From: Candidatus Aminicenantes bacterium | GTDB lineage: Bacteria; Acidobacteriota; Aminicenantia; UBA2199 | Assembly: GCA_011772425.1 (NCBI GenBank) | Contig: WVZO01000393.1 | Span: 1,615-65,614, forward strand | Direction: 5' to 3' | DNA: 64,000 nucleotides | Part shown: piece after piece, positions 2,766-47,238 of the stretch | How positions within the stretch are numbered: position 1 is the stretch's first letter | How the letters are laid out: every line of letters begins with the position of its first letter | Translations under genes and position numbers: made by a program | The notes under the pieces: generated by a model | The model's input: the letters and a program-made list of their open reading frames with translations, nothing else | Database searches by the model: none | Told to the model about the DNA's origin: nothing

Positions 2766-4517
2766 CTAATATAATCCAAGATGCTTCAAATACAACGTAC
2801 CCTCAGTACCAGGATACGCACAAGCATTGTTAATCGAAACAAAAACCGAATTTACCCTCGTTAACACCGGCATGCGCTTCTTGTTCTCACCAAAATACCC
2901 ATGAAACTTATTAAAAGATATAACAAACTTCTTCCACTTCATATCCGCTAAAAACGAATGACGATACCACGTCTCATCATCCTTGTTTCCAGACTTTGTC
3001 CTGAACTCCATCCAGAACCGGCCCTTCTTATCCGACCGCGCCTCAAACACAAACCCCTTATACCCCGAAAAATCAAACCGCTCCCTCAACGCCATCGCCG
3101 ACCAAAAATCCTTAACCCCCGGAGAGTCCTTATCCAATTTAAAAGAAAAACGGGTTATTTTAACCTTTTTCTTCTTATCCATATCAAACCCAATAGTCCC
3201 CTCAGATCCACTGTTTTTTTCCACTTTAAACGCATCCTGCGCTTCCTGAAGCAGCCGTTTAGGTATGATTTCCTTCTTTTCCCGGGAAGAGGGTAGGGGA
3301 ACCGCTCCACTTACCCCAATAAAAAACGGGTTGGTCATGATCCAGGGCAATTCATCAAAGGTATTCCCGGGTACATACACTTCAACCCGGTAAACACCCG
3401 GTTCATTTACGTTTATTTTAAGTATTTTGCCCTGGATGCCCTTAATTTGTTTGTATTTCTTTCCATACTTTAAAACATATGCATCAACAGCAAACTTAAA
3501 AGGCAAATGAATCACCAGCGTACCTGTTCTCGAAGCCGAATACCCACCCATATCAATGCGTTTTCTCTTATCTTCCTCAGTAAAATATGCCTCAAACCCA
3601 TTGGCTGCCGAAATCCCTTCGATGACATTGAAAAAATTCCCCTCCCTTAAAGACCATACAACATCAGACGACGCCTGGATGGCATCTTTCTCAAAATCGC
3701 TGTCAACTTTTACATACACGGTCATGATCTCAAACATGGATTTATACGTAGGAAAATTTAATTGCATATCTTCTGAAATCGGTAATTTGGCATGGGCATC
3801 CAATGCATAAATCCCATAATACCGGTGCGATTCGTCAGCATTCAAGGAATCCCATTTCTTTACATTCTCTGTAGGGTATCCCATAGTATTCAATAACGCA
3901 TACTTTGAATTTATCCAGTATTTCAAAGGAAAAATCAGCACCTTTAAAACACCGGCTTTCATGGCTTCACTATAAGAACTTAATACCTCAAGACCGGAAA
4001 ATCTTTTAATATCCCAATCCGTCCACGGGACTTTACGATCAAAAGGATGGGAGATGAAACACACTCCGTCATCACCAATAATCTCATTGATCGCTTCTTG
4101 CGGTTCTGGGGGAAAGATATAATCCGGCACCTTAAATCCCACTGCTGCCAGGTGACCGGAATTTAACGATAATTCCGTACCACCAATCAACAACACATTA
4201 CCCCTCCATGATGTGCAGGTAGACGACTTGATATTGGGCCTGCCATGGTCGGTCAGGATCACAAAATCCAGGTTTAAATCAGCAGCAGCATCCGCAATTT
4301 CATCCACGGTTCCTTTACCATCCGAAAATACCGAGTGCATATGGTAGACGCCTTTTTTATAATAAGAGGGTAGGGGATTGGTGTTTACTTCCGGTCGATA
4401 AAAAAACGCAGGTGCTATATTCAACACCAACAACACCACAACCAGGATAAACAAATATTTCAAAATTTTTCTAAATTTTCTTTTTTTCTTTGTCTTTGTT
4501 TTTTTCAATTCTTGCAT
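2766..4517 (-). CDS. Membrane-anchored PHP-domain (CehA/McbA-type) metal-dependent phosphoesterase-like protein with a C-terminal beta-sandwich-like domain
   Basis: There is an N-terminal K-rich segment plus a TM helix. The PHP signature is GVYHMHSVFSDGKGTVDEIADAAADLNLDFVILTDHG ... FISHPFD. The C-terminal domain assignment is weak. Confidence 0.75.
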   Translation of the reverse strand: MQELKKTKTKKKRKFRKILKYLFILVVVLLVLNIAPAFFYRPEVNTNPLPSYYKKGVYHMHSVFSDGKGTVDEIADAAADLNLDFVILTDHGRPNIKSSTCTSWRGNVLLIGGTELSLNSGHLAAVGFKVPDYIFPPEPQEAINEIIGDDGVCFISHPFDRKVPWTDWDIKRFSGLEVLSSYSEAMKAGVLKVLIFPLKYWINSKYALLNTMGYPTENVKKWDSLNADESHRYYGIYALDAHAKLPISEDMQLNFPTYKSMFEIMTVYVKVDSDFEKDAIQASSDVVWSLREGNFFNVIEGISAANGFEAYFTEEDKRKRIDMGGYSASRTGTLVIHLPFKFAVDAYVLKYGKKYKQIKGIQGKILKINVNEPGVYRVEVYVPGNTFDELPWIMTNPFFIGVSGAVPLPSSREKKEIIPKRLLQEAQDAFKVEKNSGSEGTIGFDMDKKKKVKITRFSFKLDKDSPGVKDFWSAMALRERFDFSGYKGFVFEARSDKKGRFWMEFRTKSGNKDDETWYRHSFLADMKWKKFVISFNKFHGYFGENKKRMPVLTRVNSVFVSINNACAYPGTEGTLYLKHLGLY

Positions 4518-4586
4518 GAAGCCAATCTCCTTGAATAATGAATTGATATTATATCATTTTTAGCACCCGTTAAGAAACTTTTTTTT

Positions 4587-4778
4587 GCCTTCGGCGACCA
4601 GGGGGGCTCTTTTCGAGAAAACTGCCCCCCTGGACCCCCCGCAAAAGCTTTTGTTTAAAGGAGTTATCACTTGGGGTACGATGTTTAAAGGCCCCGTAAC
4701 ACAGGCTGACCATGAATAAAAAATTTTTGCGGGGTCCAGGGGCGGTTTTTCAAAAGAGCCCCTGGCCGCCGGAGGCCA
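4587..4778. repeat. Inverted pair of a ~60-bp GC-hairpin element (REP/BIME-like) in a divergent intergenic region
   Basis: The left arm is gccttcggcgaccaggggggctcttttcgagaaaactgcccccctggaccccccgcaaaagctttt. The right arm is aaaaatttttgcggggtccaggggcggtttttcaaaagagcccctggccgccggaggc, its imperfect reverse complement. About 65 bp separate the arms. Each arm is itself a hairpin (CCAGGGGGGC...GCCCCCCTGG). Confidence 0.85.
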
Positions 4779-4818
4779 AGGAGTTCAGGATTTCGTGGTT
4801 CAAAATCTAAAAATTATC

Positions 4819-4847
4819 TTGACTTCACAAACAATACATTCTAAAAT
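4819..4847 (+). promoter_or_regulatory. Sigma70-type promoter (TTGACT-N17-TAAAAT) ending 9 nt before the CDF start codon
   Basis: TTGACT lies at 4819-4824 and TAAAAT at 4842-4847, with the ATG at 4856. No Shine-Dalgarno lies between them, which implies a leaderless or 1-3 nt leader transcript. Confidence 0.5.
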
Positions 4848-4855
4848 TACCCCTC

Positions 4856-5785
4856 ATGAAAAAAAATGCATATTCATCTCTACCTGTTATATTGACAGCG
4901 CTAATCGCCAATCTTTTTATTGCTATTCTCAAGCTCATCGTTGCCGTGTTAACCGGATCATCTGCCATACTGGCAGAAGCGATCCACTCTTTTGCCGACA
5001 CCATGAACCAGGTGCTCCTGTTAGTAGGCATTAAAAAAGGTGGAAAAGCCCCGGATTCCCTTCATCCTTTTGGATTCTCCGGTGAATTGTATTTCTGGTC
5101 TTTTATTGTTGCCATAATCCTGTTCACTGCCGGCGGGGTGTTTTCCATTTATGAAGGCATTCATAAACTGTTTCATCCCCAGGCCATTGAAAACGTCAAC
5201 TACGCCTTTGTGGTATTGATCTTTTCCATTGCCGCTGAAGGCACCGCCTTTTATAAAGCCTTGAAGAAAGTTAACAGGGAACGCCAGGGCATACCGGTAT
5301 ACCAATACTTGCGGAAAACTAAAAAATCCGAACTCATCGTGGTATTCCTTGAAGACCTGGCAGCTATATGCGGGCTCACCACTGCGCTGCTCCTCATCTT
5401 CTTGCAACACATCACCGGCATCTTGATATTCGACGGCATCGCCTCTATACTCATCGGGCTTATCCTCTGTGTCGTAGCCCTGTTTCTGGGCAATGAAATC
5501 CGCTCCTTGCTCATCGGCGAAAGCGCCGACCCCGGAATCATCAAAAAAATAGCCGCTCTATTCAATCAAGAAGAAAGTATTAACCGGCTCATTTTCATCA
5601 AATCCTTGCAACTGGGGCCACACGATATCCTGATCTCAGTAAAAGCCGAATTCAACCACCGCCTCACTTCAGTGGAAATCAGCAACCTGATTAACGGTAT
5701 TGAAAAAGAAATCCGGGAAAAATTCCCGGACGTTAAAAAAATCTTCATCGAACCCGATATTTATTATGGAGATAATAAATGTTGA
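4856..5785 (+). CDS. Cation diffusion facilitator (CDF) family metal efflux transporter
   Basis: There are six hydrophobic segments. The CDF signature is SSAILAEAIHSFADTMNQVLLL, followed by a C-terminal cytoplasmic domain (HDILISVKAEF...). Confidence 0.85.
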   Translation: MKKNAYSSLPVILTALIANLFIAILKLIVAVLTGSSAILAEAIHSFADTMNQVLLLVGIKKGGKAPDSLHPFGFSGELYFWSFIVAIILFTAGGVFSIYEGIHKLFHPQAIENVNYAFVVLIFSIAAEGTAFYKALKKVNRERQGIPVYQYLRKTKKSELIVVFLEDLAAICGLTTALLLIFLQHITGILIFDGIASILIGLILCVVALFLGNEIRSLLIGESADPGIIKKIAALFNQEESINRLIFIKSLQLGPHDILISVKAEFNHRLTSVEISNLINGIEKEIREKFPDVKKIFIEPDIYYGDNKC

Positions 5786-5839
5786 AAATATTAACTCTCC
5801 TTTGATTTTCAGCTCATTTTGTGATAATATAAACTTGAT

Positions 5840-8800
5840 ATGAAAATTACGAAAATACTACTCTTACTTGTTCTTCTCGCCCCGTTTCACCTGTTTGCTG
5901 TCAAGTATCCCATTATCAATTACCTGGCCTCGGACGGGCTGCCTCAAAGCTATATCAATGCATTAATACAGGACCATCTGGGCTATATATTTGTAGGTAC
6001 CCAAAGCGGTATCGGCAAGTTTGATGGGAATAACTTTGAAGTCATTACAATAAGAAACGGGTTACCCAATAATTTCATAAACGATTTTGCCATGGATAAC
6101 CAGGGGAATATATGGGCAGCCACCCTGGAAGGACTGGCAAAAATCGACAAAACCTACAAAATTAGCAGCTATATGACAGCAAAATCCATCCGCTCCCTTA
6201 AAAATGACAGCACCGCCAATACCCTGTGGATTTTCACCCAAAATGGCGTTTATTATCTAAAAAACAATAAATTCGTCATTTACAAACTCCTGGACTACAC
6301 ATTTCAAGAAGGTGATGAAAACAAGGTAAAAGGTTTAATAATCACCGATCCAGGAGTTAAATACTTTTACTCCGATCGGGAAATCCTGGAAATAAAGGAT
6401 AAAAAAATCCATACCATTAAAAGTGAGCACAACATCAATGTCTTAAAATGGCTGGACAGCGAGAAAAAAATAGTCGTTGGCACGAAAGACGGTTTATTTG
6501 TGTTGAAAATTGAAACTGCTCCCCCCCGATTCATCCCATACATTGACTTACCACCTGGCGGCCGCAATGTTACCGATATAGTGGTTGATGAGAGGAAGAG
6601 AATCTGGGTGGGTACGGAAGGTGGTTTACTTATTTATACGCGGCCATTTGCTGACCCCATCATTATTACCGATGAAAACGGTTTTATTTCCAGGAGAGTT
6701 ACAAAAATTATTATCGACAGGGAAAAGAGCATCTTTATCGGCACCCGTTGGGGATTAGCACAACTCTCACCCAATCTTTTCAAGATGTACGATGACAGCG
6801 ATGGATTACCCAGCGAATTTGTCTGGGACTTTTTAGAAGACGAAGAAAATGATTCCCTACTGATAGCTTGTGACAATGGAATCGCTGAATTCAACAGGAA
6901 AACCGGCGAAATCATCCCGTTCTCCTTTCTCAATCGACAATTAAAAGATCACTCCGTGCGGGTCATTGAAAAGATAGGGCAAAATGATTTCTTGTTAGGC
7001 ACCAGGGAGCGAGGCCTTTACCGGTGGGATCGAAAGGTCCGGCTAACCAGAATTCTCCCCAACACCGGTGTATTAGACGGTGCCAAAACAAGTAACAACA
7101 TTGCCTGGTTTGGAACAGACCACGGTCTTCTTAAATATGATAATAAAAACAACCGCTTCAGGTTCTACCGGGATGGCTTAAAAGATGATACGATATGGGC
7201 ACTGGCCGTGGTTTACAATGATACACTCCTGGTGGGCACGGGCAAAGGTGTGCAAAAATTTTACCGGGAAAAATTCGTACCTTCGGAGTTTGAAAGCCAA
7301 ATTCATGAAAATACCGTGGTCAACGATATCGAAGTGATATCCCCCTCTGAAATCATGGTAGCCACAGAACTAAATGGTTTATACATTTTTAAAGACAACC
7401 AATTGAAACGTATTACCACAGCCAATGGGTTACTGCACAACGACGTATGGTCAGTCATAAAAGACAACTACGGCAATATTTGGTTGAATACCACCATCTC
7501 CCTTGCCCGCCGGTATACGGACGGGTTTATTTCTCATTTTAACAGGAAAACAGGCCTATTTGGTGATGAAGGCTCTATCCATTCCGCCTTTAAAGCTCGC
7601 AGCGGAACCATTTATTTCGGGATCACACCGGGGATTGTGGAAATACCTGAAAACCCCATCCATAAAACCGACATCGATATCAAAACCCCCATTCTTCATA
7701 TAAAAGAAATAAAAGTCAAAGGAAAAAAAGTACCGTTAGACACAACCAGCTCCTCTCATCACCCGATTCACTTAAATTACAGTCAAAACAACATCGAATT
7801 TGCCTACATCACAGTCTCCACCCGGAAAGAAAATCCGGTTTTTTATAAAACCTGTCTTCACCCCCTGGATACTCAATGGTCGGAGCCTACCCGGGAAACC
7901 CATATCAAATACTTGAATCTTCCCCCAGCCGATTATACCTTTGAAGTAATTGCCAACAACGGAGGAGGGGAGAACCAATGGTTCAAATCGAAAAATAAAA
8001 TCTTCCTGGTAATTAAAAAGCCTTTTTGGGTGACCTGGTGGTTTATTTCATCACTGGTTATCTTGTGTATCTTTGTTGTGTTTTTCCTGGTTAAACTCCG
8101 ACTCAACCGCCTGGAAAAACAGAAAGAACACCTTCAGCAACTGGTTGAAAAAAGGACAACGGAGCTGCAGCACCTTTCTATCACCGACCCCTTAACCGAT
8201 TTAAAGAACCGGAGGTACCTGGAAGAGAAAATCAAAGAAGACATCAATCTCATTGAACGATCTATATATGATAAAACAAAATATCCCCATAAAGAATCTC
8301 TTGCTGAAGCGCCGATATTAGGGGTATTTATACTGGACATCGATCATTTCAAAAAAGTAAACGACGATTACGGGCATAAAGCCGGAGATATCGTTATCGT
8401 GAATATTGCTCAACTGTTAATCGAAATGCTCAGGAATTCAGACACCATTGTCAGATGGGGAGGTGAGGAGTTCTTAGTCATCACCCGGCAATACGGAAAA
8501 AGCAACTCTTTTGAGTTGGCTGAACGGATTCGCAAAAAAGTCGCATCCTTCGAATTTGAAATCAATGAAGGAATTACCTTACGAAAAACCATTAGTGTGG
8601 GTTTTGCCCATTTCCCTTTTATCCCTGAGGAGATTAACCGGGTCAATTGGCCTCATGTGGTATCGCTGGCAGACAGTGCCCTTTACATTGCAAAAAACAG
8701 CGGCAGGAACTTAAGCATCGGTATCGAATACGGGGAAAAAGAATTGGATATTGACTTTAAAGAAATCGTATCCAACATTAAAATGGGAGTAGAAAAAAAT

Positions 8801-11191: not shown

Positions 11192-11677
11192 ATGTTGAAA
11201 ATACGATCCGGAATCGGCTATGATATTCATCGAATCGAGAAGGGAGACGGTCTTTCCCTGGGAGGCGTACAAGTATCGAACGAACTCCGTTTTGTGGCCC
11301 ATTCGGATGGCGACCTGCTGATTCATGCTCTAATCGATTCGCTGTTGGGTGCCATTGGAGAAAAAGATATTGGGGAACTTTTTCCCGATACTGACCTTCG
11401 CTACAAAAATATAAAAAGCACCGTGCTGCTGGAAAAAACCCTGGAAATCCTGAAACAAAAACACTTCGAAATCATGAATATTGATGCCGTCATCATTGCC
11501 GAATCCCCAAAAATCAGCCCATTTAAAGAAAAAATACGGGAAAATATTGCTTCGATCCTGGGAATTGCCAAAGAGGATTTTAACCTAAAAGCAAAGACCA
11601 AGGAAAAAACCGGGGCAGTGGGTAGGGGAGAGGCCATGGAGTGTTACTGTGTATCAATGGTCAGGAGTTTAGAGTGA
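11192..11677 (+). CDS. ispF: 2-C-methyl-D-erythritol 2,4-cyclodiphosphate synthase
   Basis: The motifs are RSGIGYDIHR...LGGV...HSDGDLLIHALIDSLLGA...DIGELFPDTD, the IspF zinc and substrate motifs. Confidence 0.92.
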   Translation: MLKIRSGIGYDIHRIEKGDGLSLGGVQVSNELRFVAHSDGDLLIHALIDSLLGAIGEKDIGELFPDTDLRYKNIKSTVLLEKTLEILKQKHFEIMNIDAVIIAESPKISPFKEKIRENIASILGIAKEDFNLKAKTKEKTGAVGRGEAMECYCVSMVRSLE

Positions 11678-11680
11678 AAA

Positions 11681-13030
11681 ATGTCAAAAGCGCGCATTCC
11701 TTTAATCACCATTATTGGCGTACCCAATACCGGGAAATCCACGCTTTTTAACCGTCTCATCGGTCAACGAAAAGCCCTGGTTCATACGGATGCAGGTATG
11801 ACCAGAGACATCTACAAAAAATCTTTTGCAATAAATGGTAAAGAGTTTTATCTCCAGGATTCCGGTGGTTTTTTCCCGGATTCCCACATCATTACGGATG
11901 AAATCAATAAACGAATATTCAAGGAAGCCCAGGCTTCGGATCTTATTATCTTTTTATTTGACGGCAAACGGGATTTACTGGGATATGAAAAAGATCTGTT
12001 CCTGGATATCAAGAAAATAAATCCTAATATTATTCCTGTGGTCAATAAGGTGGATAACCCAGAAACCTTTATTCTATCCCCATCATACTACCAATTGAAA
12101 CAGGATTTTTTATTTGTCTCTGCAGAACACAACCTGGAAGTTGAAACTGTCCTGGAAGCCATTGAAAAGAAATTTGAGAACCACATTAAATCAATGGCGA
12201 AAGCGGATATAGAGGCAGCAAAAACCAGGATCAGTATCGTGGGAAAACCCAACGTGGGAAAATCTTCCATTGTCAACAAAATTTTGCAAGATGATCTTGT
12301 CATCGTCAGTCCTATTCCCGGGACCACCCGGGATTCGGTGGATCTTGAGGTGAAGCGTTACAATAAAACCTTTATCCTTGTGGACAATGCCGGAATCCGA
12401 AAATTAAAAAAGGTCAAAGAGAGAACCGAAAGTGCAGCGGTTATCCGTGCAGAAAAAGACATTCGCAGCGCCGATATCGTAATATTTGTGATAGACATCT
12501 CCAAACGAATCGATCAAAACGATCTACTCATTGCCCACAAGATTTTAAAATCTGCTAGGCCGTTGGTGGTAGCCTGTAATAAATGGGACCTTGTTGCGGA
12601 TGCAGATACGGACACAGATAAGCGTCGTGGGCAATCCCTTCTATCAAGAGCAAAGGAAAAACTCAATTTTTTCTATTTTGCTCCTTTTATTCTTGTTTCA
12701 GCAGTTACCGGTAAGAATATTTTCAATTTACTGGACCGGGCAGCAGCGATTCACACCAAATTGAGTGGCAAAATCAAGACCTCTTATCTCAACAAAGTGG
12801 TCCTGCAAATATCAAAGGAGAAGAAAATTTTAACCGAAACCAATCGGCCCTTTAATCCCAGGTATGTATCTATTGAATCTTACCGGCCCTTTTTTATTCG
12901 TTTTCATGCCGGCAGCAGCCATAAGTTGAAACCCTTCCATGAAATATACTTGAAGAAAAGAATTAGTGAAGCATTGGATTTGGAAGGCATCCCGGTATTT
13001 TTTAAGATTTCCAGCAAAAAGAAAAAGTAA
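11681..13030 (+). CDS. der: Ribosome-biogenesis GTPase Der/EngA
   Basis: There are two tandem G domains (GVPNTGKST...DSGG...NKVD; GKPNVGKSS...DNAG...NKWD) and a KH-like C-terminus. Confidence 0.92.
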   Translation: MSKARIPLITIIGVPNTGKSTLFNRLIGQRKALVHTDAGMTRDIYKKSFAINGKEFYLQDSGGFFPDSHIITDEINKRIFKEAQASDLIIFLFDGKRDLLGYEKDLFLDIKKINPNIIPVVNKVDNPETFILSPSYYQLKQDFLFVSAEHNLEVETVLEAIEKKFENHIKSMAKADIEAAKTRISIVGKPNVGKSSIVNKILQDDLVIVSPIPGTTRDSVDLEVKRYNKTFILVDNAGIRKLKKVKERTESAAVIRAEKDIRSADIVIFVIDISKRIDQNDLLIAHKILKSARPLVVACNKWDLVADADTDTDKRRGQSLLSRAKEKLNFFYFAPFILVSAVTGKNIFNLLDRAAAIHTKLSGKIKTSYLNKVVLQISKEKKILTETNRPFNPRYVSIESYRPFFIRFHAGSSHKLKPFHEIYLKKRISEALDLEGIPVFFKISSKKKK

Positions 13031-40778: not shown

Positions 40779-41312
40779 TTATCCCTCAATCATCACTTTT
40801 ACAGTTTCGGCAAGTGGGAATTTATCCTTTTGAAGCCCTATCATTTTCTCAAAATAGTTAAATATACGAGAATAGCATTCCATAAAGATTTTCCCGGCAA
40901 CCAAAAAAACAATTAAATCAAAGCAGACTTTTGTCGAATCAAATCCACCTAAATCAATCCATTTGTCAGTATAATTGGATTTCTGTAAATGCTCATCATA
41001 TTTGGACTCCACCATTTCTACAATCTTATCATAGGTTTTGGCTTTCCGTATGGCATCATACAAATATGAAAAATCCTCTTCGGGTTCAAATATTTCCAAT
41101 TGAGCTTTGATAAAATCCACCAATCCGTCCTCTATCAATTCCTTCTTAATGATCCAGGAAACACTCTCATCATCTTCGATTTTATCGTACAAACTTAAAT
41201 TCACTTCTTTTTTTAATGCTTCGTCTGCCCTGTCCAGGGAAGCACCGTGTTTCAAATCTTCCTTGTAAATCGTAATTTTCCTGCATACTCCGACGCACAT
41301 AAACTGTCCCAT
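40779..41312 (-). CDS. Hypothetical acidic 177-aa protein (candidate partner of the CHAT-STAND gene)
   Basis: GGAGG lies 7 nt upstream of the ATG. The N-terminus is MGQFMCVGVC, with no TM segment and a composition that looks mostly helical. I recognise no family. Confidence 0.65.
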   Translation of the reverse strand: MGQFMCVGVCRKITIYKEDLKHGASLDRADEALKKEVNLSLYDKIEDDESVSWIIKKELIEDGLVDFIKAQLEIFEPEEDFSYLYDAIRKAKTYDKIVEMVESKYDEHLQKSNYTDKWIDLGGFDSTKVCFDLIVFLVAGKIFMECYSRIFNYFEKMIGLQKDKFPLAETVKVMIEG

Positions 41313-41332
41313 AAATAACCTCCTTCTTTATA

Positions 41333-41362
41333 CTTTTACCATAAGCCATAGGAAAAAATCAA
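41333..41362 (-). promoter_or_regulatory. Promoter-like TTGATT-N18-TAAAAG upstream of the 177-aa gene
   Basis: The minus strand reads aattgattttttcctatggcttatggtaaaagtataaagaaggaggttatttATG. It shares the AATTGATTTTTT and TGGTAAAAGTA blocks with the region upstream of the CHAT gene. Confidence 0.35.
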
Positions 41363-41436
41363 TTTTTTTGCCACAGATTACAACGATCATAATGGGGCAC
41401 GACATTAAGAAGCAACGTACAATGGTTGACCGTGTA

Positions 41437-41493
41437 TAAAAAGCTTTTGCGGGGGTCCAGGGGGCAGTTTTCTCGAAAAGAGTCCCCTGGCAA
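41437..41493. repeat. Third copy of the GC-hairpin REP-like element seen at 4587-4778
   Basis: aaaaagcttttgcgggggtccagggggcagttttctcgaaaagagtcccctggcaaa matches the reverse complement of the 4598-4655 arm. The differences are G-run lengths and one substitution. It lies 19-75 nt downstream of the kbl-like stop codon. Confidence 0.85.
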
Positions 41494-41511: not shown

Positions 41512-42759
41512 CTATTGCCCGTACATGTCGATGACTTCTTGTTTGGTTTTGTGCAGGATGTCGTACTTCTTCCCTACGTTGATGAAGGCATCCAATGCTT
41601 TTTCCAGGTGGTGCAGCTCATGAGCGGCTGAAATCTGGGTGCGAATCCGGGCCTGACCTTTAGGTACCACAGGAAAGAAAAAGCCAATAGCATAAATACC
41701 AAGATCATAAAGGTCTTTGGCAAAATCCTGCGAAAGCTTGGCATTGAAAAGCATTACCGGTACAATTGGGGTTTCACCTTCTTTAAGAATAAAACCGGCA
41801 TCGGTCAGTCCTTTTCTCCAAAAATTGGTGTTGTTTTCCAATTTGTCCCGCCGTTCCGTGGTTTTTGAAATCAGGTTCAACACAGCCAACGCACCTTCCA
41901 CAATGACGGGAGGCATGGTGTTGGAAAAAAGATACGGTCTGGCTTTTTGCCGGCACATTTCTACCAGCTCTCCCCGGCCGGATACACAGCCGCCGGACGC
42001 TCCACCTAACGCTTTACCCAGGGTAGTGGTAATAATATCGATCTTTCCGAATACGCCGCAGTGTTCATGGGTTCCTCTCCCGGTTTTGCCGATAAACCCG
42101 GTGGCGTGAGAGTCATCCACGAAAACCATGGCGTTATATTTTTCCGCCAGTTCCACGATCCGGTCCAGTTTGGCCAAGTCACCGTCCATGGAAAAGTTGC
42201 CATCGGTGATAATCATTTTCAACCGCCTGTCCTGGTGCAGTTGGAGTTTCTTCTCCAGGTGTTTCATGTCAGAGTGCTTGAAGCTGTCTTGCATGGCTTT
42301 ACACAACCGCATCCCGTCGATGATGGAAGCATGCACCAACCGGTCGGCGATCATGACGTCATCTTCGGTTAATATGGCCTCAAATACACCGCAGTTGGCA
42401 TCCATGCAGGAGGGAAAAAGAATGGTGTCTTCGGTTCCCAGGAATTCGCTTAATTTATCTTCCAGTTGTTTATGGATATCCTGGGTGCCGCAGATAAATC
42501 GAACCGAAGACATCCCATAACCCCGGTGGTCCAATCCTTTGCGCGCCGCCTCAACCACTTCAGGAAGAGAGGAGAGTCCCAGGTAATTATTGGCACACAT
42601 GTTAATGACTCTCTTCTCTTTGGTCCCCACAGGAAAAACCACTTCAATCTCCGAATCCTGGGGAGCACAAATGATTCGTTCCTCTTTGAAAAGTCCTGCT
42701 TCCTTAAGATTGCTCAACTCATCCTGGAAAATCTTTCTATTCTCATCGCTAAAAGCCAT
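41512..42759 (-). CDS. kbl: Alpha-oxoamine synthase, closest by motif to glycine C-acetyltransferase (2-amino-3-ketobutyrate CoA ligase)
   Basis: The match to the Kbl pattern I remember is near-collinear: GLFKEERII, NMCANNYLGL, SVRFICGTQDIHK, HASIIDGMRLCKA, DDSHATGFIGKTGRGTHE, TTLGKALGGASGG, RPYLFSNT, FFFPVVPKGQARIRTQISAAH. Confidence 0.85.
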   Translation of the reverse strand: MAFSDENRKIFQDELSNLKEAGLFKEERIICAPQDSEIEVVFPVGTKEKRVINMCANNYLGLSSLPEVVEAARKGLDHRGYGMSSVRFICGTQDIHKQLEDKLSEFLGTEDTILFPSCMDANCGVFEAILTEDDVMIADRLVHASIIDGMRLCKAMQDSFKHSDMKHLEKKLQLHQDRRLKMIITDGNFSMDGDLAKLDRIVELAEKYNAMVFVDDSHATGFIGKTGRGTHEHCGVFGKIDIITTTLGKALGGASGGCVSGRGELVEMCRQKARPYLFSNTMPPVIVEGALAVLNLISKTTERRDKLENNTNFWRKGLTDAGFILKEGETPIVPVMLFNAKLSQDFAKDLYDLGIYAIGFFFPVVPKGQARIRTQISAAHELHHLEKALDAFINVGKKYDILHKTKQEVIDMYGQ

Positions 42760-42777
42760 GATGATCTCTCCTTCCGA

Positions 42778-43029
42778 CTATTCCACGCCGAATTCTTTCA
42801 TTAGTGACACAATACTATCGACAGTATCAAACGCTTCAGGGGTGGCTTTGGCATCGGGAATCTGGATATTATACTTGGTTTCCAGGAATCGTTTTAGAGA
42901 AACCATTGAAAACGAATCCACGATACCACCGGAAATCAACGGTGTATCATAGCTGACCTCGATATCATCATCATCTTCCAGGTATTCTTCTTGCACATAC
43001 TCTAAAATAACATCTTTAATATCAGACAT
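42778..43029 (-). CDS. Acyl/peptidyl carrier protein (stand-alone)
   Basis: This is an 83-aa acidic protein with a phosphopantetheine-site-like motif GGIVDSFSMVSL. It lies 18 nt upstream of the kbl-like gene and 35 nt downstream of the ligase gene. Confidence 0.75.
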   Translation of the reverse strand: MSDIKDVILEYVQEEYLEDDDDIEVSYDTPLISGGIVDSFSMVSLKRFLETKYNIQIPDAKATPEAFDTVDSIVSLMKEFGVE

Positions 43030-43064
43030 GTTTATCTCCTTCTTCTGAATTTATTTATATGATT

Positions 43065-44771
43065 TTATTCGTTATCTTCCAGTGTTGACGTGTCGCCAAT
43101 TTCTTCGCCCCATTCTTTGGCCCTGAGCAGTCGTCGCATGATTTTACCGCTGCGGGTCTTGGGGAGCGAATCCATAAACTCAATCTCCTGCGGCATAGCC
43201 AGGGGAGATAATTTTTTACGGATAAAATTCATGATTTTCAATTCCAGTTCATCAGAGCCTTTATACCCGGGTTTCAAGGCAATGAAAGCTTTTACCACTT
43301 CCATATTCACCGGGTCGGGTTTACCCACACAGGCAGATTCTGCTACTGCCTCATGCTCCAGGAGAGCCGATTCGATTTCAAATGGTCCCACCAGGTGACC
43401 ACCGGTATTGATCACATCATCGTCCCTACCCACAAACCAAAAATATCCATCCTCATCGATACTGGCACGGTCACCGCAGATGTACCAACCATTTCTAAAT
43501 TTGCTCCTATAAACCTCTTCGTTTTTCCAATAACTCCTGAACATGGACGGCCATCCGGGGATGATGGCAATCAGGCCGACGGTCCCAGATTTTTTTACCG
43601 GTTCATAGGTTTTCATATCCACCACATCGGCAGTAATTCCGGGAAAGGGTTTGCCCATGGAACCGGGTTTGATTTTCATGCCCGGGTAGTTGCATATCAT
43701 TATGCTGCCGGTTTCGGTTTGCCAGAAGGTGTCGTGAAAGCTCAACCCAAACGTTTCGCCAGACCAGATGACCGCCTCGGCATTTAAAGGCTCACCCACG
43801 GAACACATATGCCGGAGAGACGAAAGATCATATTGCTGCACCAGTTCTTTGCCTTCTCTCATAAGGGAACGGATGGCTGTGGGTGCGGAATACCAGGTGG
43901 TGATTTTATGGTCTTCAATAAATTGGTACCAGGTGTCGGCTCTGAAACCGGAATCCAACACGCATTGGGTGATGCCGTTGGACCAAGGGCCGATAATCCC
44001 ATAAGACGTACCGGTTACCCAGCCGGGATCAGCCGTGCACCAGTAAATATCTTCATCGGTTAAATCCAATACATATTTGGCGGTAATGTACTGGGAAATT
44101 AATGAGTAATGCACATGTTGGGCACCTTTGGGTTTACCGGTGGTGCCGGAGGTATAGTGAAGCACGGATGGTGTTTCGGCTGTAGAAGGAAATATCTCAA
44201 AATCTTCCACCGACGCTGCGGTTTCCATGGAAAACGCTGTCTCTCTTTGGCGCAGGGGTTTGCTGCCGTCATCATCCACGATAATTACATGCTTTAAACG
44301 GGGTAAATCATTTAAGATTTTCCTGACTTTGCCCACATGTTTTTTTTGGGTAATAATGGCAGTGGCTTCTGCATCCTCCAACCGGGTGAATAAAGATTCA
44401 CCACCAAAAGCAGAAAAAAGAGGTTGGGCAATGGCGCCCATTTTTAATATCCCCAGAAATCCAAAGTAAAGTTCCGGGACTTTATCCAGGAACAAACAAA
44501 CCCGTTCGCCTTCCTTTATACCCAGGTCTTTAAGGTACCGGGCAATGGTATTGGTAAGAACACGCATCCGGTTAAAGGTGTATTTTTTTATCTCACCGGT
44601 ATATCCCTGCCAGAAAAGGGCTGGTTTTTCTCCTTTTCCCATCCGGCAAATACGGTCCGTACAGTATTCACCGATGTTGATGATGTCTCCTTTTTTGTAT
44701 CCCAATTCAGCTTCGCAATCGTCCCATTTGAAGTTCTTGACCTTTTCTTCATAGCTGCCGATGTTACTCAT
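43065..44771 (-). CDS. AMP-forming acyl-CoA/acyl-carrier ligase, AcsA (short-chain acetyl-CoA synthetase)-like
   Basis: The motifs are LHYTSGTTGKPKG, YWCTADPGWVTG, DTFWQTETGS, GDRASIDEDGYFWFVGRDDDVI and PKTRSGKIMRR. From memory, it is collinear with Bacillus-type AcsA. Confidence 0.85.
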   Translation of the reverse strand: MSNIGSYEEKVKNFKWDDCEAELGYKKGDIINIGEYCTDRICRMGKGEKPALFWQGYTGEIKKYTFNRMRVLTNTIARYLKDLGIKEGERVCLFLDKVPELYFGFLGILKMGAIAQPLFSAFGGESLFTRLEDAEATAIITQKKHVGKVRKILNDLPRLKHVIIVDDDGSKPLRQRETAFSMETAASVEDFEIFPSTAETPSVLHYTSGTTGKPKGAQHVHYSLISQYITAKYVLDLTDEDIYWCTADPGWVTGTSYGIIGPWSNGITQCVLDSGFRADTWYQFIEDHKITTWYSAPTAIRSLMREGKELVQQYDLSSLRHMCSVGEPLNAEAVIWSGETFGLSFHDTFWQTETGSIMICNYPGMKIKPGSMGKPFPGITADVVDMKTYEPVKKSGTVGLIAIIPGWPSMFRSYWKNEEVYRSKFRNGWYICGDRASIDEDGYFWFVGRDDDVINTGGHLVGPFEIESALLEHEAVAESACVGKPDPVNMEVVKAFIALKPGYKGSDELELKIMNFIRKKLSPLAMPQEIEFMDSLPKTRSGKIMRRLLRAKEWGEEIGDTSTLEDNE

Positions 44772-44918
44772 TTACTGTTCTTTCTCCTTCGTAAGTAATA
44801 AGATTATTGCTCTTTAGACGTTCGCATATATTTTCACACTCGAACCACTAACCACTATAAAATCGCTTTGTAGACTAATTTATAAAATAAAACACACAAA
44901 AAGTCAAGGCGTTTCACC

Positions 44919-45764
44919 CTATAACCCCCTCTTTTTTTCTCCGGTTTCAATTGTTAATGAGAAAATAGGCTGCCCCACTTTCACTGGCTGGCCGATGACC
45001 CCTGGAATGGGTTCTGCCATTTTTTGGGGAAACACCAAAACAATGGTGGACCCCATTTCAAATCGTCCCATCTCTTCCAGTTGATTTACTTCCAGGTCTA
45101 ATGGTATCCACCGGTGCCGCTTTTTAGGGGTTTTAATAAATTCCATTTTGATGCTGCCGACAAAGGTGGCACCCACAGCCGCCGCATAACAGGGCAGTCC
45201 CTTCGATTCAAATTGGGTGACAATCCGTTCGTTGCGGACAAACAATCGTTCGATATTATGAATTCCCATTGGATTGACAGGAAAGAGTCTCCTGCCGGTA
45301 TGAAGGTATCGTTTAATATTTCCTGTTAAAGGATAGTGATAGCGGTGATAATTAAAGGGCGCCAGGTAAATGACAGCCACATGCCAACCTGGTGAAAAAT
45401 CAATGTTATCACAGATCAGACTGGAAATTCGATAGGTTTTTCCCTTTACCTGGGCGGCCTGATCGTGGTAAATAGTCTCCACGTTTGTCAGTATGCCGTC
45501 TGCCGGTGAAACAATGGCATTATTGTCCGGGATCAACGGCCGTTTTTCCGGGTCCAAAGGTCTAACGAAGAAATCGCATAAACTCTTATAGTCTTCCACC
45601 TGCCCCGCATATTCGTCCATATCGATATTATATGATTGGCAATACAATTCAACCAGTCCTTTGATTATAAAACGGGGATGACGAAGACGAGCAATGCGTC
45701 CCCATATCCGGCTGAATATCCGCAAGGATAAAATGGAAAGGAATAATTTCACCAAAAATTTCAT
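44919..45764 (-). CDS. psd: Phosphatidylserine decarboxylase proenzyme
   Basis: The motifs are FFVRPL, VSPADG, YLAPFNYHRYHYP and NER, plus the self-cleavage site FEMGSTIV. Confidence 0.88.
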   Translation of the reverse strand: MKFLVKLFLSILSLRIFSRIWGRIARLRHPRFIIKGLVELYCQSYNIDMDEYAGQVEDYKSLCDFFVRPLDPEKRPLIPDNNAIVSPADGILTNVETIYHDQAAQVKGKTYRISSLICDNIDFSPGWHVAVIYLAPFNYHRYHYPLTGNIKRYLHTGRRLFPVNPMGIHNIERLFVRNERIVTQFESKGLPCYAAAVGATFVGSIKMEFIKTPKKRHRWIPLDLEVNQLEEMGRFEMGSTIVLVFPQKMAEPIPGVIGQPVKVGQPIFSLTIETGEKKRGL

Positions 45765-45828
45765 GGTTAATTTCTTCTAATTTTTAATTTATTGGTATAT
45801 TTTAATCAATATCCGGGTAAGTGTCAAA

Positions 45829-45875
45829 CTTCGTGTCCCTTCGTGCTTTTTACCGCATTGTAAATGCCTTCGTGG
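45829..45875 (+). repeat. CTTCGTG word array (cttcgtgtcccttcgtgc ... ccttcgtgg), copy of the 30328-30353 element with a 20-bp insertion
   Basis: The sequence is cttcgtgtcccttcgtgc tttttaccgcattgtaaatg ccttcgtgg. It ends 15 nt upstream of a -35 box. Confidence 0.8.
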
Positions 45876-45889
45876 CTAAAATCAGCCCC

Positions 45890-45918
45890 TTGTAATTGCC
45901 GGAGATAATGTATATAAT
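45890..45918 (+). promoter_or_regulatory. Sigma70-type promoter (TTGTAA-N17-TATAAT)
   Basis: TTGTAA lies at 45890-45895 and TATAAT at 45913-45918. GGAGG at 45944-45948 precedes the start codons at 45954/45963. Confidence 0.5.
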
Positions 45919-45953
45919 ATACCACTTGCTTAAAGAAACAAATCCCGGAGGAA

Positions 45954-46508
45954 TTGAAAAATATGAACTTTAAAGAGTATTATGATAAAGCCATGAATTA
46001 TGAAGATTATGTCTCCTTATTGGGAGAAAACTTTAAGATGCATCAAGTGCACTGCAAGAGGTTTGAGAAAGATATTACCGAGGAAGAAGAAAAATATATA
46101 AAAACGGTTAAGCCGGTGAACATATTGGTATTGACAGAACCCTGGTGTGGGGATTCGTTGGCGGTTCTACCGGTGGTGAGGAATATAGCGGAAATCAATG
46201 GTTCCTGGTCCATGAAGGTGTTGCGGCGGGATGAGAACCTGGATTTAATGGACCGGTTTTTGACTCGCGGCGGCCGTGCCGTGCCCTTGTTTTTCTTTTT
46301 AGCGGACAATTATTCGCTGATATTTAAATGGGGGCCGCGGCCAAAGGCGGCGCAGGATATTTTTGAAGCACACCGCCAGCAGCTCCAAGAAGGAACAATC
46401 GAAAAGATGGAAGTGGTCAAAAAAATCCGCAACTTTTATTCCAAAAACCACGGCAAAGCCATTCTCACCGAATTGATGTCAGCTTTGAAAGAAAATCACC
46501 TCATCTAA
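45954..46508 (+). CDS. Thioredoxin-fold family protein
   Basis: LVLTEPWCGDSLAVLPV is a WCxD-type thioredoxin-like motif. The track start is TTG 45954; the in-frame ATG 45963 is equally plausible. Confidence 0.7.
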   Translation: MKNMNFKEYYDKAMNYEDYVSLLGENFKMHQVHCKRFEKDITEEEEKYIKTVKPVNILVLTEPWCGDSLAVLPVVRNIAEINGSWSMKVLRRDENLDLMDRFLTRGGRAVPLFFFLADNYSLIFKWGPRPKAAQDIFEAHRQQLQEGTIEKMEVVKKIRNFYSKNHGKAILTELMSALKENHLI

Positions 46509-46512
46509 TTTT

Positions 46513-47238
46513 TTATTCTTTATGCTCTTTATATGCGTGAAGAAGCGTGTTATTGATAATTCTTACGATTTGTTCGGTTTCGTCGTGGATAAAAAAGTGT
46601 TCTCCTGCAAAATAATAGATGGTACAGACTTTATTGGTATGTTCTCTCCAGCCGTGCATTTGTTCGGCATTCACTTCTTCTTCTTTACCGATGAAGACCG
46701 TAATATCATAATCTAATGGTTTTATTTCGCCGTTATGTTCGTAGGTTTCAGCGATTTTAAAATCGCTTCTCAGCATGGGCAGGAGGACTTCCAGTAATTC
46801 CAGGTGATCAAAGAATTCTTTGGGAGTACCCCCCAATTCGATGATTTTTTCCCTGAATTCGTCTTCAGGCAGGAGGTGGTACATCTCATCATCTTCGCAG
46901 GGGATATTGGGTGCTCCCCGTCCTGAGAAAAATATATGAAGGGGCTCGGGCAGGTTATTATCTCTTATTTTATAGGCCAGTTCATAGGCAATGATTCCGC
47001 CCATACTGTGGCCGTAAAAGGCATAAGGGCCTTTAGCCAATTCCTCGGAAATCAGGTTGAATACGTCGTCTACGGCTTCTTCTATTGAATTGTACGGCGG
47101 GTCGTAGATGCGTTTTCCCCTGCCTGCCAATTCCACGGCCCGCAGATCGATATATTTGTCCAGGTACTGGCGCCATTTATTAAAAGCAGCCGCAGCACCA
47201 CCCGCATAAGGAAAACAGAATAGTTTTATTTTTTTCAT
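46513..47238 (-). CDS. Type II thioesterase (alpha/beta hydrolase, NRPS/PKS-editing type)
   Basis: The N-terminus is KLFCFPYAGGAAAAFNKW. The nucleophile elbow is FYGHSMGG and the C-terminal His region is GEHFF. Confidence 0.8.
   Translation of the reverse strand: MKKIKLFCFPYAGGAAAAFNKWRQYLDKYIDLRAVELAGRGKRIYDPPYNSIEEAVDDVFNLISEELAKGPYAFYGHSMGGIIAYELAYKIRDNNLPEPLHIFFSGRGAPNIPCEDDEMYHLLPEDEFREKIIELGGTPKEFFDHLELLEVLLPMLRSDFKIAETYEHNGEIKPLDYDITVFIGKEEEVNAEQMHGWREHTNKVCTIYYFAGEHFFIHDETEQIVRIINNTLLHAYKEHKE

What the first reader, a model, noticed from the sequence alone, without database searches (positions are those of the whole stretch)
41512..47238. AcsA-like ligase, dedicated carrier protein and Kbl-like alpha-oxoamine synthase operon beside psd and a type II thioesterase
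Seen in sequence: three tightly spaced minus-strand genes (gaps of 35 and 18 nt).
- A 568-aa AMP-forming ligase has short-chain AcsA-type motifs (YTSGTTGKPKG, DTFWQTETGS, PKTRSGKIMRR).
- An 83-aa carrier protein carries a DSFSM phosphopantetheine-type site.
- A 415-aa PLP enzyme is collinear with Kbl motifs (SVRFICGTQD, HASIIDG, TLGKALGGASGG, PVVPKGQARIRTQ).

Phosphatidylserine decarboxylase lies 147 nt upstream. A GrsT-like type II thioesterase lies 1.7 kb upstream.

Established knowledge: canonical Kbl works with threonine dehydrogenase on free acetyl-CoA and needs no carrier protein. By contrast, the trio of alpha-oxoamine synthase, ACP and acyl-ACP synthetase is the first module of bacterial sphingolipid (Spt) pathways, and related trios occur in other amino-lipid or amino-ketone pathways.

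Inference: this operon probably makes a carrier-tethered alpha-amino ketone (a lipid long-chain base or a small signalling or secondary metabolite) rather than degrading threonine. No ceramide synthase or reductase is visible in the window, so the product is open.
Basis: partly seen in the sequence, partly recalled or inferred. Interest (0 to 1): 0.6.

Follow-up and report, generated by a model that had tools for sequence, protein, structure and literature searches.

The report
Carrier-protein-linked acetate ligase and Kbl paralogue
Three genes that databases would label as ordinary acetyl-CoA synthetase, a small carrier protein and the threonine/glycine enzyme Kbl are a uncharacterised unit conserved across many mostly uncultured phyla, and it most likely joins acetate to glycine on its own carrier protein rather than on coenzyme A; it is not a sphingolipid-type pathway.

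Summary
In detail: all coordinates, gaps and motifs are correct.

- **Conserved unit.** Ligase, carrier and oxoamine synthase (AOS1) stay together. In 80 loci from Aminicenantes, Ignavibacteria, Zixibacteria, Calditrichia, KSB1, Fibrobacteres and others, AOS1 follows the carrier in 78 and the ligase precedes it in 63.
- **Carrier link.** An AcpS-type phosphopantetheinyl transferase gene lies directly upstream of the ligase in 11 of 96 loci. Ligase-carrier and AcpS-carrier fusion proteins exist.
- **Substrate.** The ligase keeps the four acetate-pocket residues of Acs, so a long-chain base or lipid is not supported.
- **AOS1.** It is a distinct clade (bootstrap 100) nested inside the Kbl family with all Kbl catalytic residues. 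In relatives it often sits beside a classical kbl and tdh.
- **Neighbours.** psd is the housekeeping orthologue, adjacent only in near relatives. The thioesterase is adjacent only within this genus.

Best reading: acetate is loaded on the carrier and condensed with glycine to 2-amino-3-oxobutanoate. Direction and physiological role remain unresolved.

This scan has already reported the same module on other genomes, with the same conclusion. I found no paper describing it.

The parts
43065..44771 (-). Acetate-activating adenylate-forming ligase of the short (B. subtilis AcsA-like) type; member of a module-specific clade
   Evidence: NF003313 scores 769 against a cut-off of 729. It scores 558 bits to the solved 572-aa AcsA 9g79. 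Acetate-pocket residues and catalytic Lys543 are conserved, and the clade is separate from canonical short AcsA. It is the only Acs-family gene found in this assembly.
42778..43029 (-). Dedicated 83-aa acidic carrier protein (pI 4.05); phosphopantetheine-attachment Ser39 lies in GGIVDSFSM
   Evidence: Ser39 is invariant in alignments. The AlphaFold model has pLDDT 86 and Foldseek hits are all carrier proteins such as PigG, PltL, DltC and AcpP. The family holds more than 8000 proteins, most over 80% identical. AcpS is adjacent or fused in relatives.
41512..42759 (-). AOS1: Kbl-family PLP-dependent alpha-oxoamine synthase paralogue that always follows the carrier gene
   Evidence: It passes both Kbl equivalog cut-offs and scores 438-454 bits to solved Kbl structures. 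It forms a monophyletic clade with UFBoot 100 inside the Kbl family. Clade-specific substitutions and a 14-aa C-terminal extension are listed.
41437..41493 (-). G+C-rich hairpin followed by a T-run just after the AOS1 stop; likely 3' end of the operon, and a copy of a repeat noted by another reader
   Evidence: The sequence was read. In same-genus G366 this position holds a classical kbl instead.
44919..45764 (-). psd (phosphatidylserine decarboxylase): a neighbour, not part of the conserved module
   Evidence: Pfam scores 172 bits. It is orthologous to the single-copy psd of relatives and keeps the GST self-cleavage motif. A weak terminator-like site lies at 44905-44921 between psd and the ligase. 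It is adjacent to the trio only in the nearest relatives.
46513..47238 (-). Type II thioesterase: a genus-specific neighbour, not part of the conserved module
   Evidence: Pfam Thioesterase scores 159 bits. It is absent from the 96 related loci. In same-genus G366 the order is TE-psd-ligase-ACP-AOS1-AOS2 on one strand, with a 6-nt gap between TE and psd.

Best explanation
A three-gene operon encodes a private-carrier version of the Kbl reaction.

Proposed steps:
1. The AcsA-clade ligase adenylates acetate. This is shown only by conserved pocket and catalytic residues.
2. It transfers the acetyl group to the phosphopantetheine thiol of the dedicated 83-aa carrier. This is inferred from synteny, ligase-carrier fusions and AcpS linkage.
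3. The Kbl paralogue AOS1 condenses acetyl-S-carrier with PLP-bound glycine to give 2-amino-3-oxobutanoate and free holo-carrier. This is inferred from the retained Kbl catalytic residues and the invariable carrier-AOS1 adjacency.

The product can be reduced to L-threonine by Tdh, which is present elsewhere in this genome, or can decay to aminoacetone.

I favour the ATP-driven condensing direction, about 60:40 over the reverse. The reason is that an AMP-forming ligase with a private carrier pool is the usual way to push a Claisen condensation, as in Spt modules. psd and the thioesterase are neighbours, not parts of the module.
For: Synteny:
- Carrier and AOS1 are adjacent in all 12 family loci and all 16 phylum loci.
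- They are adjacent in 78 of 80 loci from many phyla, and the ligase is upstream in 63 of 80.
- Where the ligase is not adjacent, it is still in the genome.

Co-occurrence in 301 genomes of the phylum:
- Ligases scoring 711-781 bits occur in 26 of 32 carrier-positive genomes and in no carrier-negative genome.
- Canonical short AcsA (859-935 bits) occurs in 9 genomes that lack a strong carrier match.

Carrier nature:
- The fold is a carrier-protein fold and Ser39 is invariant.
- acpS abuts the ligase in 11 of 96 loci.
- G247 has acpS-ACP-AOS1.
- AcpS-carrier fusions exist: P0276, P0280, P0285.
- Ligase-carrier fusions exist: P0279 (659 aa, 5 contigs) and P0284.

Acetate specificity:
- V310, T311, V386 and W414 (E. 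coli Acs numbering) are kept in 51-54 of 54 module ligases.

Kbl chemistry:
- 118 columns are shared as invariant with classical Kbl. They include N50, H136, S185, D210, H213, T241, K244, S274 and R368.

Non-redundancy with Kbl:
- AOS1 is its own clade (UFBoot 100).
- It coexists with a higher-scoring classical Kbl in many genomes, often in tandem.

Possible docking surface for an acidic carrier (suggestive only):
- Extra conserved basic residues in the ligase: R150, K519, K/R277.
- Changes in AOS1: L298R, D334N and a Lys-bearing C-terminal extension.
- The carrier has pI 4.05.
Against: - No biochemical data exist for any member, and no paper was found.
- The ligase keeps R584, a residue that I recall (not checked here) contacts the CoA nucleotide in Salmonella Acs. 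It is also the only Acs-family gene in this genome and in family f1. It may therefore still make acetyl-CoA.
- AOS1 passes the Kbl equivalog cut-offs and is the only Kbl-class gene in this assembly, with tdh present. It may therefore simply serve as Kbl.
- Genus g12 keeps acpS-ACP-AOS1 with no module ligase found, so the ligase is not always required.
- Direction is unresolved. Carrier presence is not complementary to thrC, and it does not track Zn-type tdh across families: f5 has the carrier in 23/23, thrC in 23/23 and tdh in 0/23.
Confidence: 0.45

Rival explanations
1. The same module and chemistry run in the cleavage direction. Tdh makes 2-amino-3-oxobutanoate from threonine. AOS1 cleaves it with holo-carrier to glycine plus acetyl-S-carrier. 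The ligase then runs backwards (acetyl-carrier + AMP + PPi gives acetate + ATP), conserving energy in a fermenter.
For: - A classical kbl and tdh sit beside the module in many relatives.
- No ackA was found in this assembly, and the module ligase is its only Acs-family enzyme.
- Genus g12 keeps ACP-AOS1 without the ligase, which fits cleavage better than ligase-driven synthesis.
- From my own knowledge, reverse operation of AMP-forming Acs is reported for Syntrophus aciditrophicus.
Against: - Family f5 has the module in 23/23 genomes and no Zn-type Tdh in 0/23. An SDR-type Tdh was not searched.
- Relatives in family f1 do have ackA.
- There is no obvious reason to replace CoA for this purpose.
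- The assembly is only 87.65% complete.
Confidence: 0.2
2. These are ordinary housekeeping genes. The ligase is acetyl-CoA synthetase and AOS1 is CoA-dependent Kbl working with Tdh. The small carrier has an accessory or unrelated role.
For: - Both enzymes pass NCBIfam equivalog cut-offs.
- They are the only Acs-class and Kbl-class genes found in this assembly, and tdh is present.
- R584 of the ligase (which I recall as a CoA-nucleotide contact) is conserved.
Against: - Both enzymes belong to module-specific clades distinct from canonical short AcsA and from classical Kbl.
- A classical Kbl coexists with AOS1 in many genomes, including same-genus G366.
- The carrier is under strong conservation and is glued to AOS1 in 78 of 80 loci.
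- Ligase-carrier and AcpS-carrier fusions exist.
Confidence: 0.12
3. The module makes a different small alpha-amino ketone. Either the ligase loads another C2-C3 acid (propionate, glycolate), or AOS1 uses an amino acid other than glycine and decarboxylates. The product would be a signalling or cofactor precursor such as aminoacetone or aminopropanol.
For: - W413 is replaced by F or Y in all module ligases.
- AOS1 has clade-specific changes next to active-site residues: N135V beside H136, G240T beside T241/K244, and Y253C/T254V/A255S.
- Many carriers of the module lack Zn-type Tdh.
Against: - The four acetate-pocket residues and the glycine/carboxylate-binding residues N50 and R368 are unchanged.
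- No tailoring enzyme is a conserved neighbour.
Confidence: 0.13
4. One reading: the first module of a sphingolipid-like, aminolipid or secondary-metabolite pathway using a long or medium acyl chain, functionally tied to psd and the type II thioesterase.
For: - The gene order ligase-ACP-AOS is the same as in the AasR/AcpR/Spt module (abstract of PMC9386255).
- TE-psd-ligase-ACP-AOS1 is colinear in same-genus G366.
Against: - The ligase has an acetate-sized pocket.
- Spt models score far below their cut-offs.
- AOS1 is nested in Kbl.
- The thioesterase is in 0 of 96 related loci and psd in 3 of 80.
- psd is the housekeeping orthologue.
- No reductase or N-acyltransferase is conserved nearby.
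Confidence: 0.05

Closest known systems
AasR / AcpR / serine palmitoyltransferase module of Caulobacter and other 'Rhodobacteria' (PMC9386255)
   Same: It has the same three-part logic and gene neighbourhood. An AMP-forming ligase loads a specialised carrier protein, which donates the acyl group to a PLP-dependent alpha-oxoamine synthase.
   Different: Here the ligase is an AcsA-clade enzyme with an acetate pocket, not a long-chain acyl-ACP synthetase. The AOS is a Kbl paralogue with glycine-type residues, not Spt (Spt HMMs score 228-309 against cut-offs of 500-670). No downstream ceramide genes are present.
Tdh-Kbl threonine cleavage (E. coli kbl-tdh; Kbl structures 1FC4, 7BXP, 7V58)
   Same: AOS1 scores 438-454 bits to solved Kbl structures and keeps all catalytic residues. 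In relatives a classical kbl and tdh are often next to the module.
   Different: Classical Kbl uses free CoA or acetyl-CoA and has no carrier or ligase partner. AOS1 is a separate clade with specific substitutions and a C-terminal extension. In this genome tdh lies on another contig.
Short-type acetyl-CoA synthetase AcsA (solved 572-aa chain 9g79, presumably B. subtilis; NCBIfam NF003313)
   Same: It scores 558 bits to 9g79, has the same length class and acetate pocket, and keeps the catalytic lysine in SGKIMRR.
   Different: Module ligases form their own clade and score band (711-781 bits, against 859-935 for canonical ones). They carry W413F/Y and extra conserved basic residues, and are sometimes fused to the carrier.
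Acetate:[carrier protein] ligases of citrate lyase and malonate decarboxylase (CitC, MadH) - from my own knowledge, not tested here
   Same: They are a precedent for the proposed chemistry: acetate + ATP + HS-carrier gives acetyl-S-carrier + AMP + PPi.
   Different: They belong to an unrelated enzyme family, use a different prosthetic group on the carrier, and have no AOS partner.

Membership tests
Glycine C-acetyltransferase / Kbl (EC 2.3.1.29) | Sequence passes the curated equivalog models | tested here: met
   NF005394 scores 572.7 against 460, and TIGR01822 scores 570 against 493.
Glycine C-acetyltransferase / Kbl (EC 2.3.1.29) | PLP lysine and substrate-binding residues (N50, H136, S185, D210, H213, T241, K244, S274, R368) | tested here: met
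   All are invariant across AOS1, AOS2 and E. coli Kbl.
Glycine C-acetyltransferase / Kbl (EC 2.3.1.29) | Orthology to the classical (tdh-linked, CoA-dependent) Kbl lineage | tested here: not met
   AOS1 is a separate clade (UFBoot 100). Classical Kbl of carrier-negative relatives groups with AOS2. AOS1 and classical Kbl coexist in one genome.
Glycine C-acetyltransferase / Kbl (EC 2.3.1.29) | Uses free CoA / acetyl-CoA | not testable with these tools
   This needs an enzyme assay. Synteny and fusions point to a carrier protein instead.
Acetate-CoA ligase AcsA (EC 6.2.1.1) | Passes the equivalog model; acetate pocket and catalytic lysine present | tested here: met
   NF003313 scores 769 against 729. 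V310, T311, V386, W414 and K609 equivalents are conserved.
Acetate-CoA ligase AcsA (EC 6.2.1.1) | CoA is the thiol acceptor | not testable with these tools
   R584 is kept. However, the ligase is in a module-specific clade and ligase-carrier fusions exist.
Bacterial Spt / AcpR / AasR sphingolipid module | AOS is a serine palmitoyltransferase | tested here: not met
   The three Spt equivalog models score 228-309 bits against cut-offs of 500-670.
Bacterial Spt / AcpR / AasR sphingolipid module | Long-chain acyl-ACP synthetase | tested here: not met
   The acetate-sized pocket retains the Trp414 equivalent.
Bacterial Spt / AcpR / AasR sphingolipid module | Dedicated carrier protein encoded beside the AOS | tested here: met
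   The gap is 18 nt in the window, and the pair is adjacent in 78 of 80 loci.
Phosphopantetheine carrier protein (ACP/PCP superfamily) | Helical-bundle carrier fold with a conserved Ser at the start of helix 2 | tested here: met
   The model has pLDDT 86, and the Foldseek hits listed are carrier proteins or carrier-protein chains of complexes, with TM 0.62-0.83. Ser39 is invariant.
Phosphopantetheine carrier protein (ACP/PCP superfamily) | Matches a curated family model above threshold | tested here: not met
   There is no Pfam hit at E <= 0.001. The best NCBIfam hit, ACP_for_OlsHI, scores 58.8 against a cut-off of 130.
Phosphopantetheine carrier protein (ACP/PCP superfamily) | Association with a phosphopantetheinyl transferase | tested here: met
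   acpS abuts the module in 11 of 96 loci and in G247. AcpS-carrier fusions exist. Two PPTase genes lie elsewhere in this genome.

The most novel reading that the evidence does not exclude
The module is an ATP-driven, carrier-channelled reversal of threonine cleavage. Together with Tdh it would make threonine from glycine plus acetate, and it would be the only route to threonine in lineages without threonine synthase.

The lead comes from family f1:
- At least 20 of 50 genomes have no thrC match at E <= 1e-35.
- 19 of those 20 carry the carrier.
- 17 of those 20 carry Zn-type Tdh, against 17 of the 30 with thrC.
Probability: 0.15. Interest if true: 0.8.

Novelty: new variant of a known kind. 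Interest (0 to 1): 0.55.

Why it matters
If the reading is right, a classic CoA-dependent reaction of central amino-acid metabolism has a carrier-protein-dependent twin. That twin is present in at least 548 loci among one-per-species representative genomes of mostly uncultured anaerobes, and annotation pipelines silently name it acs and kbl.

This has two consequences:
- Metabolic reconstructions of Aminicenantes, Ignavibacteria, Zixibacteria and their relatives would be wrong about acetate use and about threonine/glycine turnover.
- It would add a C2, Kbl-derived member to the ligase-carrier-oxoamine-synthase design so far known from sphingolipid and natural-product pathways.

It is directly testable with three small soluble proteins.

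Tried and rejected
- **Complex prediction.** AOS1 dimer plus carrier gave no verdict. The median score was 0.48 and one control scored 0.35. It is not used as evidence either way.
- **Riboswitch or leader search.** Nothing relevant was found in the window region or in 9 related loci. The only hit was a sub-threshold sRNA match.
- **Apparent ligase-carrier fusion in L035.** The long open frame reported is an out-of-frame ORF of a G+C-rich genome. The ligase ends before the carrier.
- **P0287, an apparent carrier-AOS fusion.** It contains garbled stretches typical of frameshifts and was rejected as an artefact.
- **thrC complementarity.** Families f5, f10 and f11 have both the module and thrC. 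Reduced families lack both, so there is no clean replacement pattern.
- **Zn-tdh co-occurrence.** It is not universal among carriers of the module. SDR-type Tdh was not searched.
- **Promoter scan.** It gave no more sites than shuffled sequence.
- **First search for related loci attempt.** It failed because the alignment was too diverse. It was repeated with closer sequences.
- **My simple longest-ORF caller.** It was unreliable in G+C-rich loci and was corrected.
- **Conserved extra neighbours.** Only lineage-specific genes turned up: GH3, LptF/G, a histidine kinase and others.


Full report
**1. Observation**

Every quoted motif is present in the translations. Pfam and NCBIfam assign them as follows:
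- The 568-aa protein has AMP-binding and AMP-binding_C domains. It exceeds the cut-off of the short-type acetate-CoA ligase model NF003313 (769 against 729).
- The 415-aa protein exceeds both Kbl equivalog cut-offs (573 against 460; 570 against 493).
- The 281-aa protein is a phosphatidylserine decarboxylase.
- The 241-aa protein is a thioesterase.

The 83-aa protein matches no Pfam model and only sub-threshold ACP models. Its best hit is the OlsHI carrier, at 58.8 bits against a cut-off of 130. Its AlphaFold model (pLDDT 86) superposes only on carrier proteins such as PigG, PltL, DltC, the glycine:carrier-protein-ligase carrier, AcpM and AcpP. Ser39 in GGIVDSFSM is invariant.

**2. The host genome**

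The assembly is a 10.4-Mb MAG of 768 contigs, 87.65% complete and 6.86% contaminated. Names attached to the closest carrier homologues place it among Aminicenantes. Within this assembly:
- The window's AOS is the only gene above the Kbl cut-off.
- The window's ligase is the only Acs-family gene; the next AMP-binding hits are 27-29% identical.
- A Zn-type tdh passes its cut-off on another contig, next to a transketolase-like gene and not next to kbl.
- Two PPTase genes lie elsewhere.

**3. The trio is a conserved unit**

The carrier family is large and tightly conserved. More than 8000 proteins were found, and the best 120 are at least 81% identical. At 50% clustering it collapses to a few dozen clusters.

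A pattern scan of one genome per species found at least 548 loci. They come from Aminicenantes, Ignavibacteria (including a MAG assigned to Ignavibacterium album), Zixibacteria, Calditrichia, KSB1, Fibrobacteraceae, Chrysiogenales, Delongbacteria and others.

In the 80 loci kept:
- An AOS 67-86% identical to the window's (AOS1) follows the carrier in 78.
- The ligase lies directly upstream in 63. Several of the rest are cut by contig ends.

The same holds in 12 family loci and 16 phylum loci. Where the ligase is not adjacent it lies elsewhere in the genome, for example 29-38 kb away in G058 and G187.

In a sample of 301 genomes of the phylum:
- Ligases scoring 711-781 bits on NF003313 occur in 26 of 32 carrier-positive genomes and in no carrier-negative one.
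- Nine genomes without a strong carrier match have a canonical short AcsA scoring 859-935 bits.
- One of those nine, G152, is flagged unpublished. G024 and G049, also unpublished, are among the genomes with only long-type Acs. None of their sequences was used.

Related genomes are not independent, so these counts overstate the statistics.

**4. Evidence that the carrier is phosphopantetheinylated and served by the ligase**

- An AcpS-type PPTase gene abuts the ligase on the same strand in 11 of 96 loci, from several phyla.
- In G247 the order is IS200 transposase - acpS - carrier - AOS1, with no module ligase found in that genus.
- Single-ORF fusions exist in public data:
  - AcpS-carrier: P0276, P0280 and P0285, with the carrier at residues 153-230 of P0285.
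  - Ligase-carrier: P0279 (659 aa, 6 member sequences on 5 contigs; ligase at 10-569 with 66% identity, carrier at 573-650 with 67% identity) and P0284.
- An apparent carrier-AOS fusion (P0287) is a frameshift artefact.

**5. What the ligase activates**

The best solved match is a 572-aa AcsA (9g79, 558 bits). I aligned 54 module ligases, 8 canonical short AcsA from the same phylum and E. coli Acs.
- The module ligases form a clade (support 0.999) sister to the canonical ones.
- V310, T311, V386 and W414 (E. coli/Salmonella numbering; from memory, the acetate-pocket residues of Salmonella Acs) are kept in 54, 54, 51 and 53 of 54 sequences.
- The catalytic residues K609, D500, R515 and G524 are also kept.
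- W413 is F or Y in all module ligases.
- R150, K519 and usually K/R277 are conserved basic residues. Canonical short forms have neutral or acidic residues at these positions.
- R584 is kept.

The substrate is therefore acetate or something of that size, not a fatty acid. The thiol acceptor cannot be read from sequence.

**6. What AOS1 is**

AOS1 scores 438-454 bits to solved Kbl structures (about 60% identical residues by eye in the two alignments shown). It shares 118 invariant columns with classical Kbl, including every residue assigned to PLP and glycine binding.

Many loci carry a second Kbl-class gene, AOS2. It is 51-60% identical to AOS1 and is often immediately downstream. AOS2 scores higher on the Kbl model than AOS1 does: 596-664 bits against about 570. 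In Ignavibacteriaceae it is followed by a bona fide tdh. In Zixibacteria and some Ignavibacteria a Tdh-like gene precedes the ligase.

An IQ-TREE analysis (LG+G4, 1000 ultrafast bootstraps, 75 sequences) gave this picture (FastTree versions):
- AOS1 is monophyletic (bootstrap 100).
- It is nested within the Kbl family.
- The single Kbl of carrier-negative Aminicenantia groups with AOS2.
- E. coli Kbl lies outside both.

AOS1-specific features, in E. coli Kbl numbering:
- N135V, next to the PLP-stacking His136.
- Y108F and S109P.
- G/S240T.
- Y/F253C, T254V and A/T255S.
- L298R and D334N.
- A conserved 14-residue C-terminal extension with two lysines.

The carrier is very acidic (pI 4.05). The gain of basic residues on both enzymes fits a docking surface, but this is only suggestive.

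Across 121 genomes of the class:
- Carrier-negative families have one high-scoring Kbl (635-683 bits).
- Carrier-positive genomes have AOS1 alone or AOS1 plus AOS2.
- Same-genus G366 has both in tandem.

In the window, a hairpin repeat, a 177-aa ORF and the CHAT-STAND gene occupy the place of AOS2. No AOS2 was found anywhere in the assembly.

**7. psd and the thioesterase**

- **psd.** It is near the trio only in the window, in same-genus G366 and in the three closest loci of the 80. It is the orthologue of the single-copy psd of relatives and keeps the GST self-cleavage motif. The genome's second PSD-family gene is a divergent 430-aa protein. A weak terminator-like site separates psd from the ligase.
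- **Thioesterase.** It is absent from all 96 related loci. In G366, however, TE-psd-ligase-carrier-AOS1-AOS2 are colinear, with 6 nt between TE and psd. In the window a Thioredoxin_9 gene on the other strand interrupts this order.

Neither gene belongs to the conserved module. A genus-specific editing role of the thioesterase on the carrier cannot be excluded.

**8. Function and direction**

Shown: the unit is conserved, its enzymes are module-specific clades, the ligase has an acetate pocket, AOS1 has Kbl catalytic residues, and the carrier is linked to AcpS and to the ligase.

Inferred: acetate is converted to acetyl-S-carrier, and acetyl-S-carrier plus glycine interconvert with 2-amino-3-oxobutanoate plus holo-carrier.

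I tested three physiological predictions across the class.
- **Replacement of threonine synthase.** There is no clean pattern. Family f5 has the carrier in 23/23 genomes and thrC in 23/23, while reduced families lack both. In family f1, however, at least 20 of 50 genomes lack thrC. Of those 20, 19 carry the carrier and 17 carry Zn-type Tdh. This is a lead, not a result.
- **Dependence on Zn-type Tdh.** This is not met: f5, f6, f10 and f11 have none. SDR-type Tdh was not searched.
- **Absence of other acetate enzymes.** ackA was not found in this assembly but is present in relatives.

Direction is therefore open. I favour ligase-driven condensation, by analogy with other ligase-carrier-AOS modules.

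**9. Comparison and novelty**

- The design matches the AasR/AcpR/Spt module (PMC9386255).
- The chemistry and ancestry are those of Kbl.
- The ligase ancestry is that of AcsA.

Five full-text searches found no description of this module. Earlier agents of this scan reported the same module on at least six other genomes and reached the same reading. I re-derived it independently here. I class it as a new variant of a known kind, of moderate interest.

Noticed in passing
window 40779-41493, compared with L142 (G366:C96) 11605-12864: In same-genus G366 a classical kbl (AOS2) follows AOS1. In the window that place holds a G+C-rich hairpin repeat, a 177-aa ORF and the CHAT-STAND-TPR gene. No AOS2 exists anywhere in the assembly. 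This suggests AOS2 was lost or replaced here, possibly by insertion of the defence-like module.
   Followed up: partly
window 45954-46508 (+), compared with L142 6510-8063: In G366 the thioesterase and psd are 6 nt apart on one strand. In the window a Thioredoxin_9-family gene on the opposite strand sits between them, which indicates a local insertion or rearrangement.
   Followed up: partly
L149 (G247:C23) 3724-7006: Genus g12 has an IS200-like transposase, then acpS, the carrier and AOS1, with no module-type ligase detected in three genomes. The carrier-AOS1 pair can therefore persist without the ligase.
   Followed up: partly
L115 3616-7249; L100 4442-7951: One Bacteroidetes MAG has two carrier genes flanking the ligase (ACP-ligase-ACP-AOS1). 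One Ignavibacteria MAG has two tandem ligase copies (63% and 70% identical to the window's) upstream of the carrier.
   Followed up: no
Genomes of family f1: At least 20 of 50 genomes of the window's family, many 92-97% complete, have no threonine synthase match at E <= 1e-35. All 14 control genomes have one. These lineages may be threonine auxotrophs or may use another route.
   Followed up: partly
G000:C638:18644-19276 and G366:C133:38411-38992: A second, divergent PSD-family gene (about 430 aa, 23-28% identical to psd, with GGS instead of GST at the cleavage site) is present in the window's genus. It is absent from three relatives searched.
   Followed up: no
G000 as a whole: The window's assembly is 10.4 Mb. 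Same-genus genomes are 6.3-6.9 Mb and most of the family is 2-3.5 Mb. With 6.86% contamination and 768 contigs, part of the size may be bin inflation, although a 9.1-Mb closed relative exists (CP070627).
   Followed up: no
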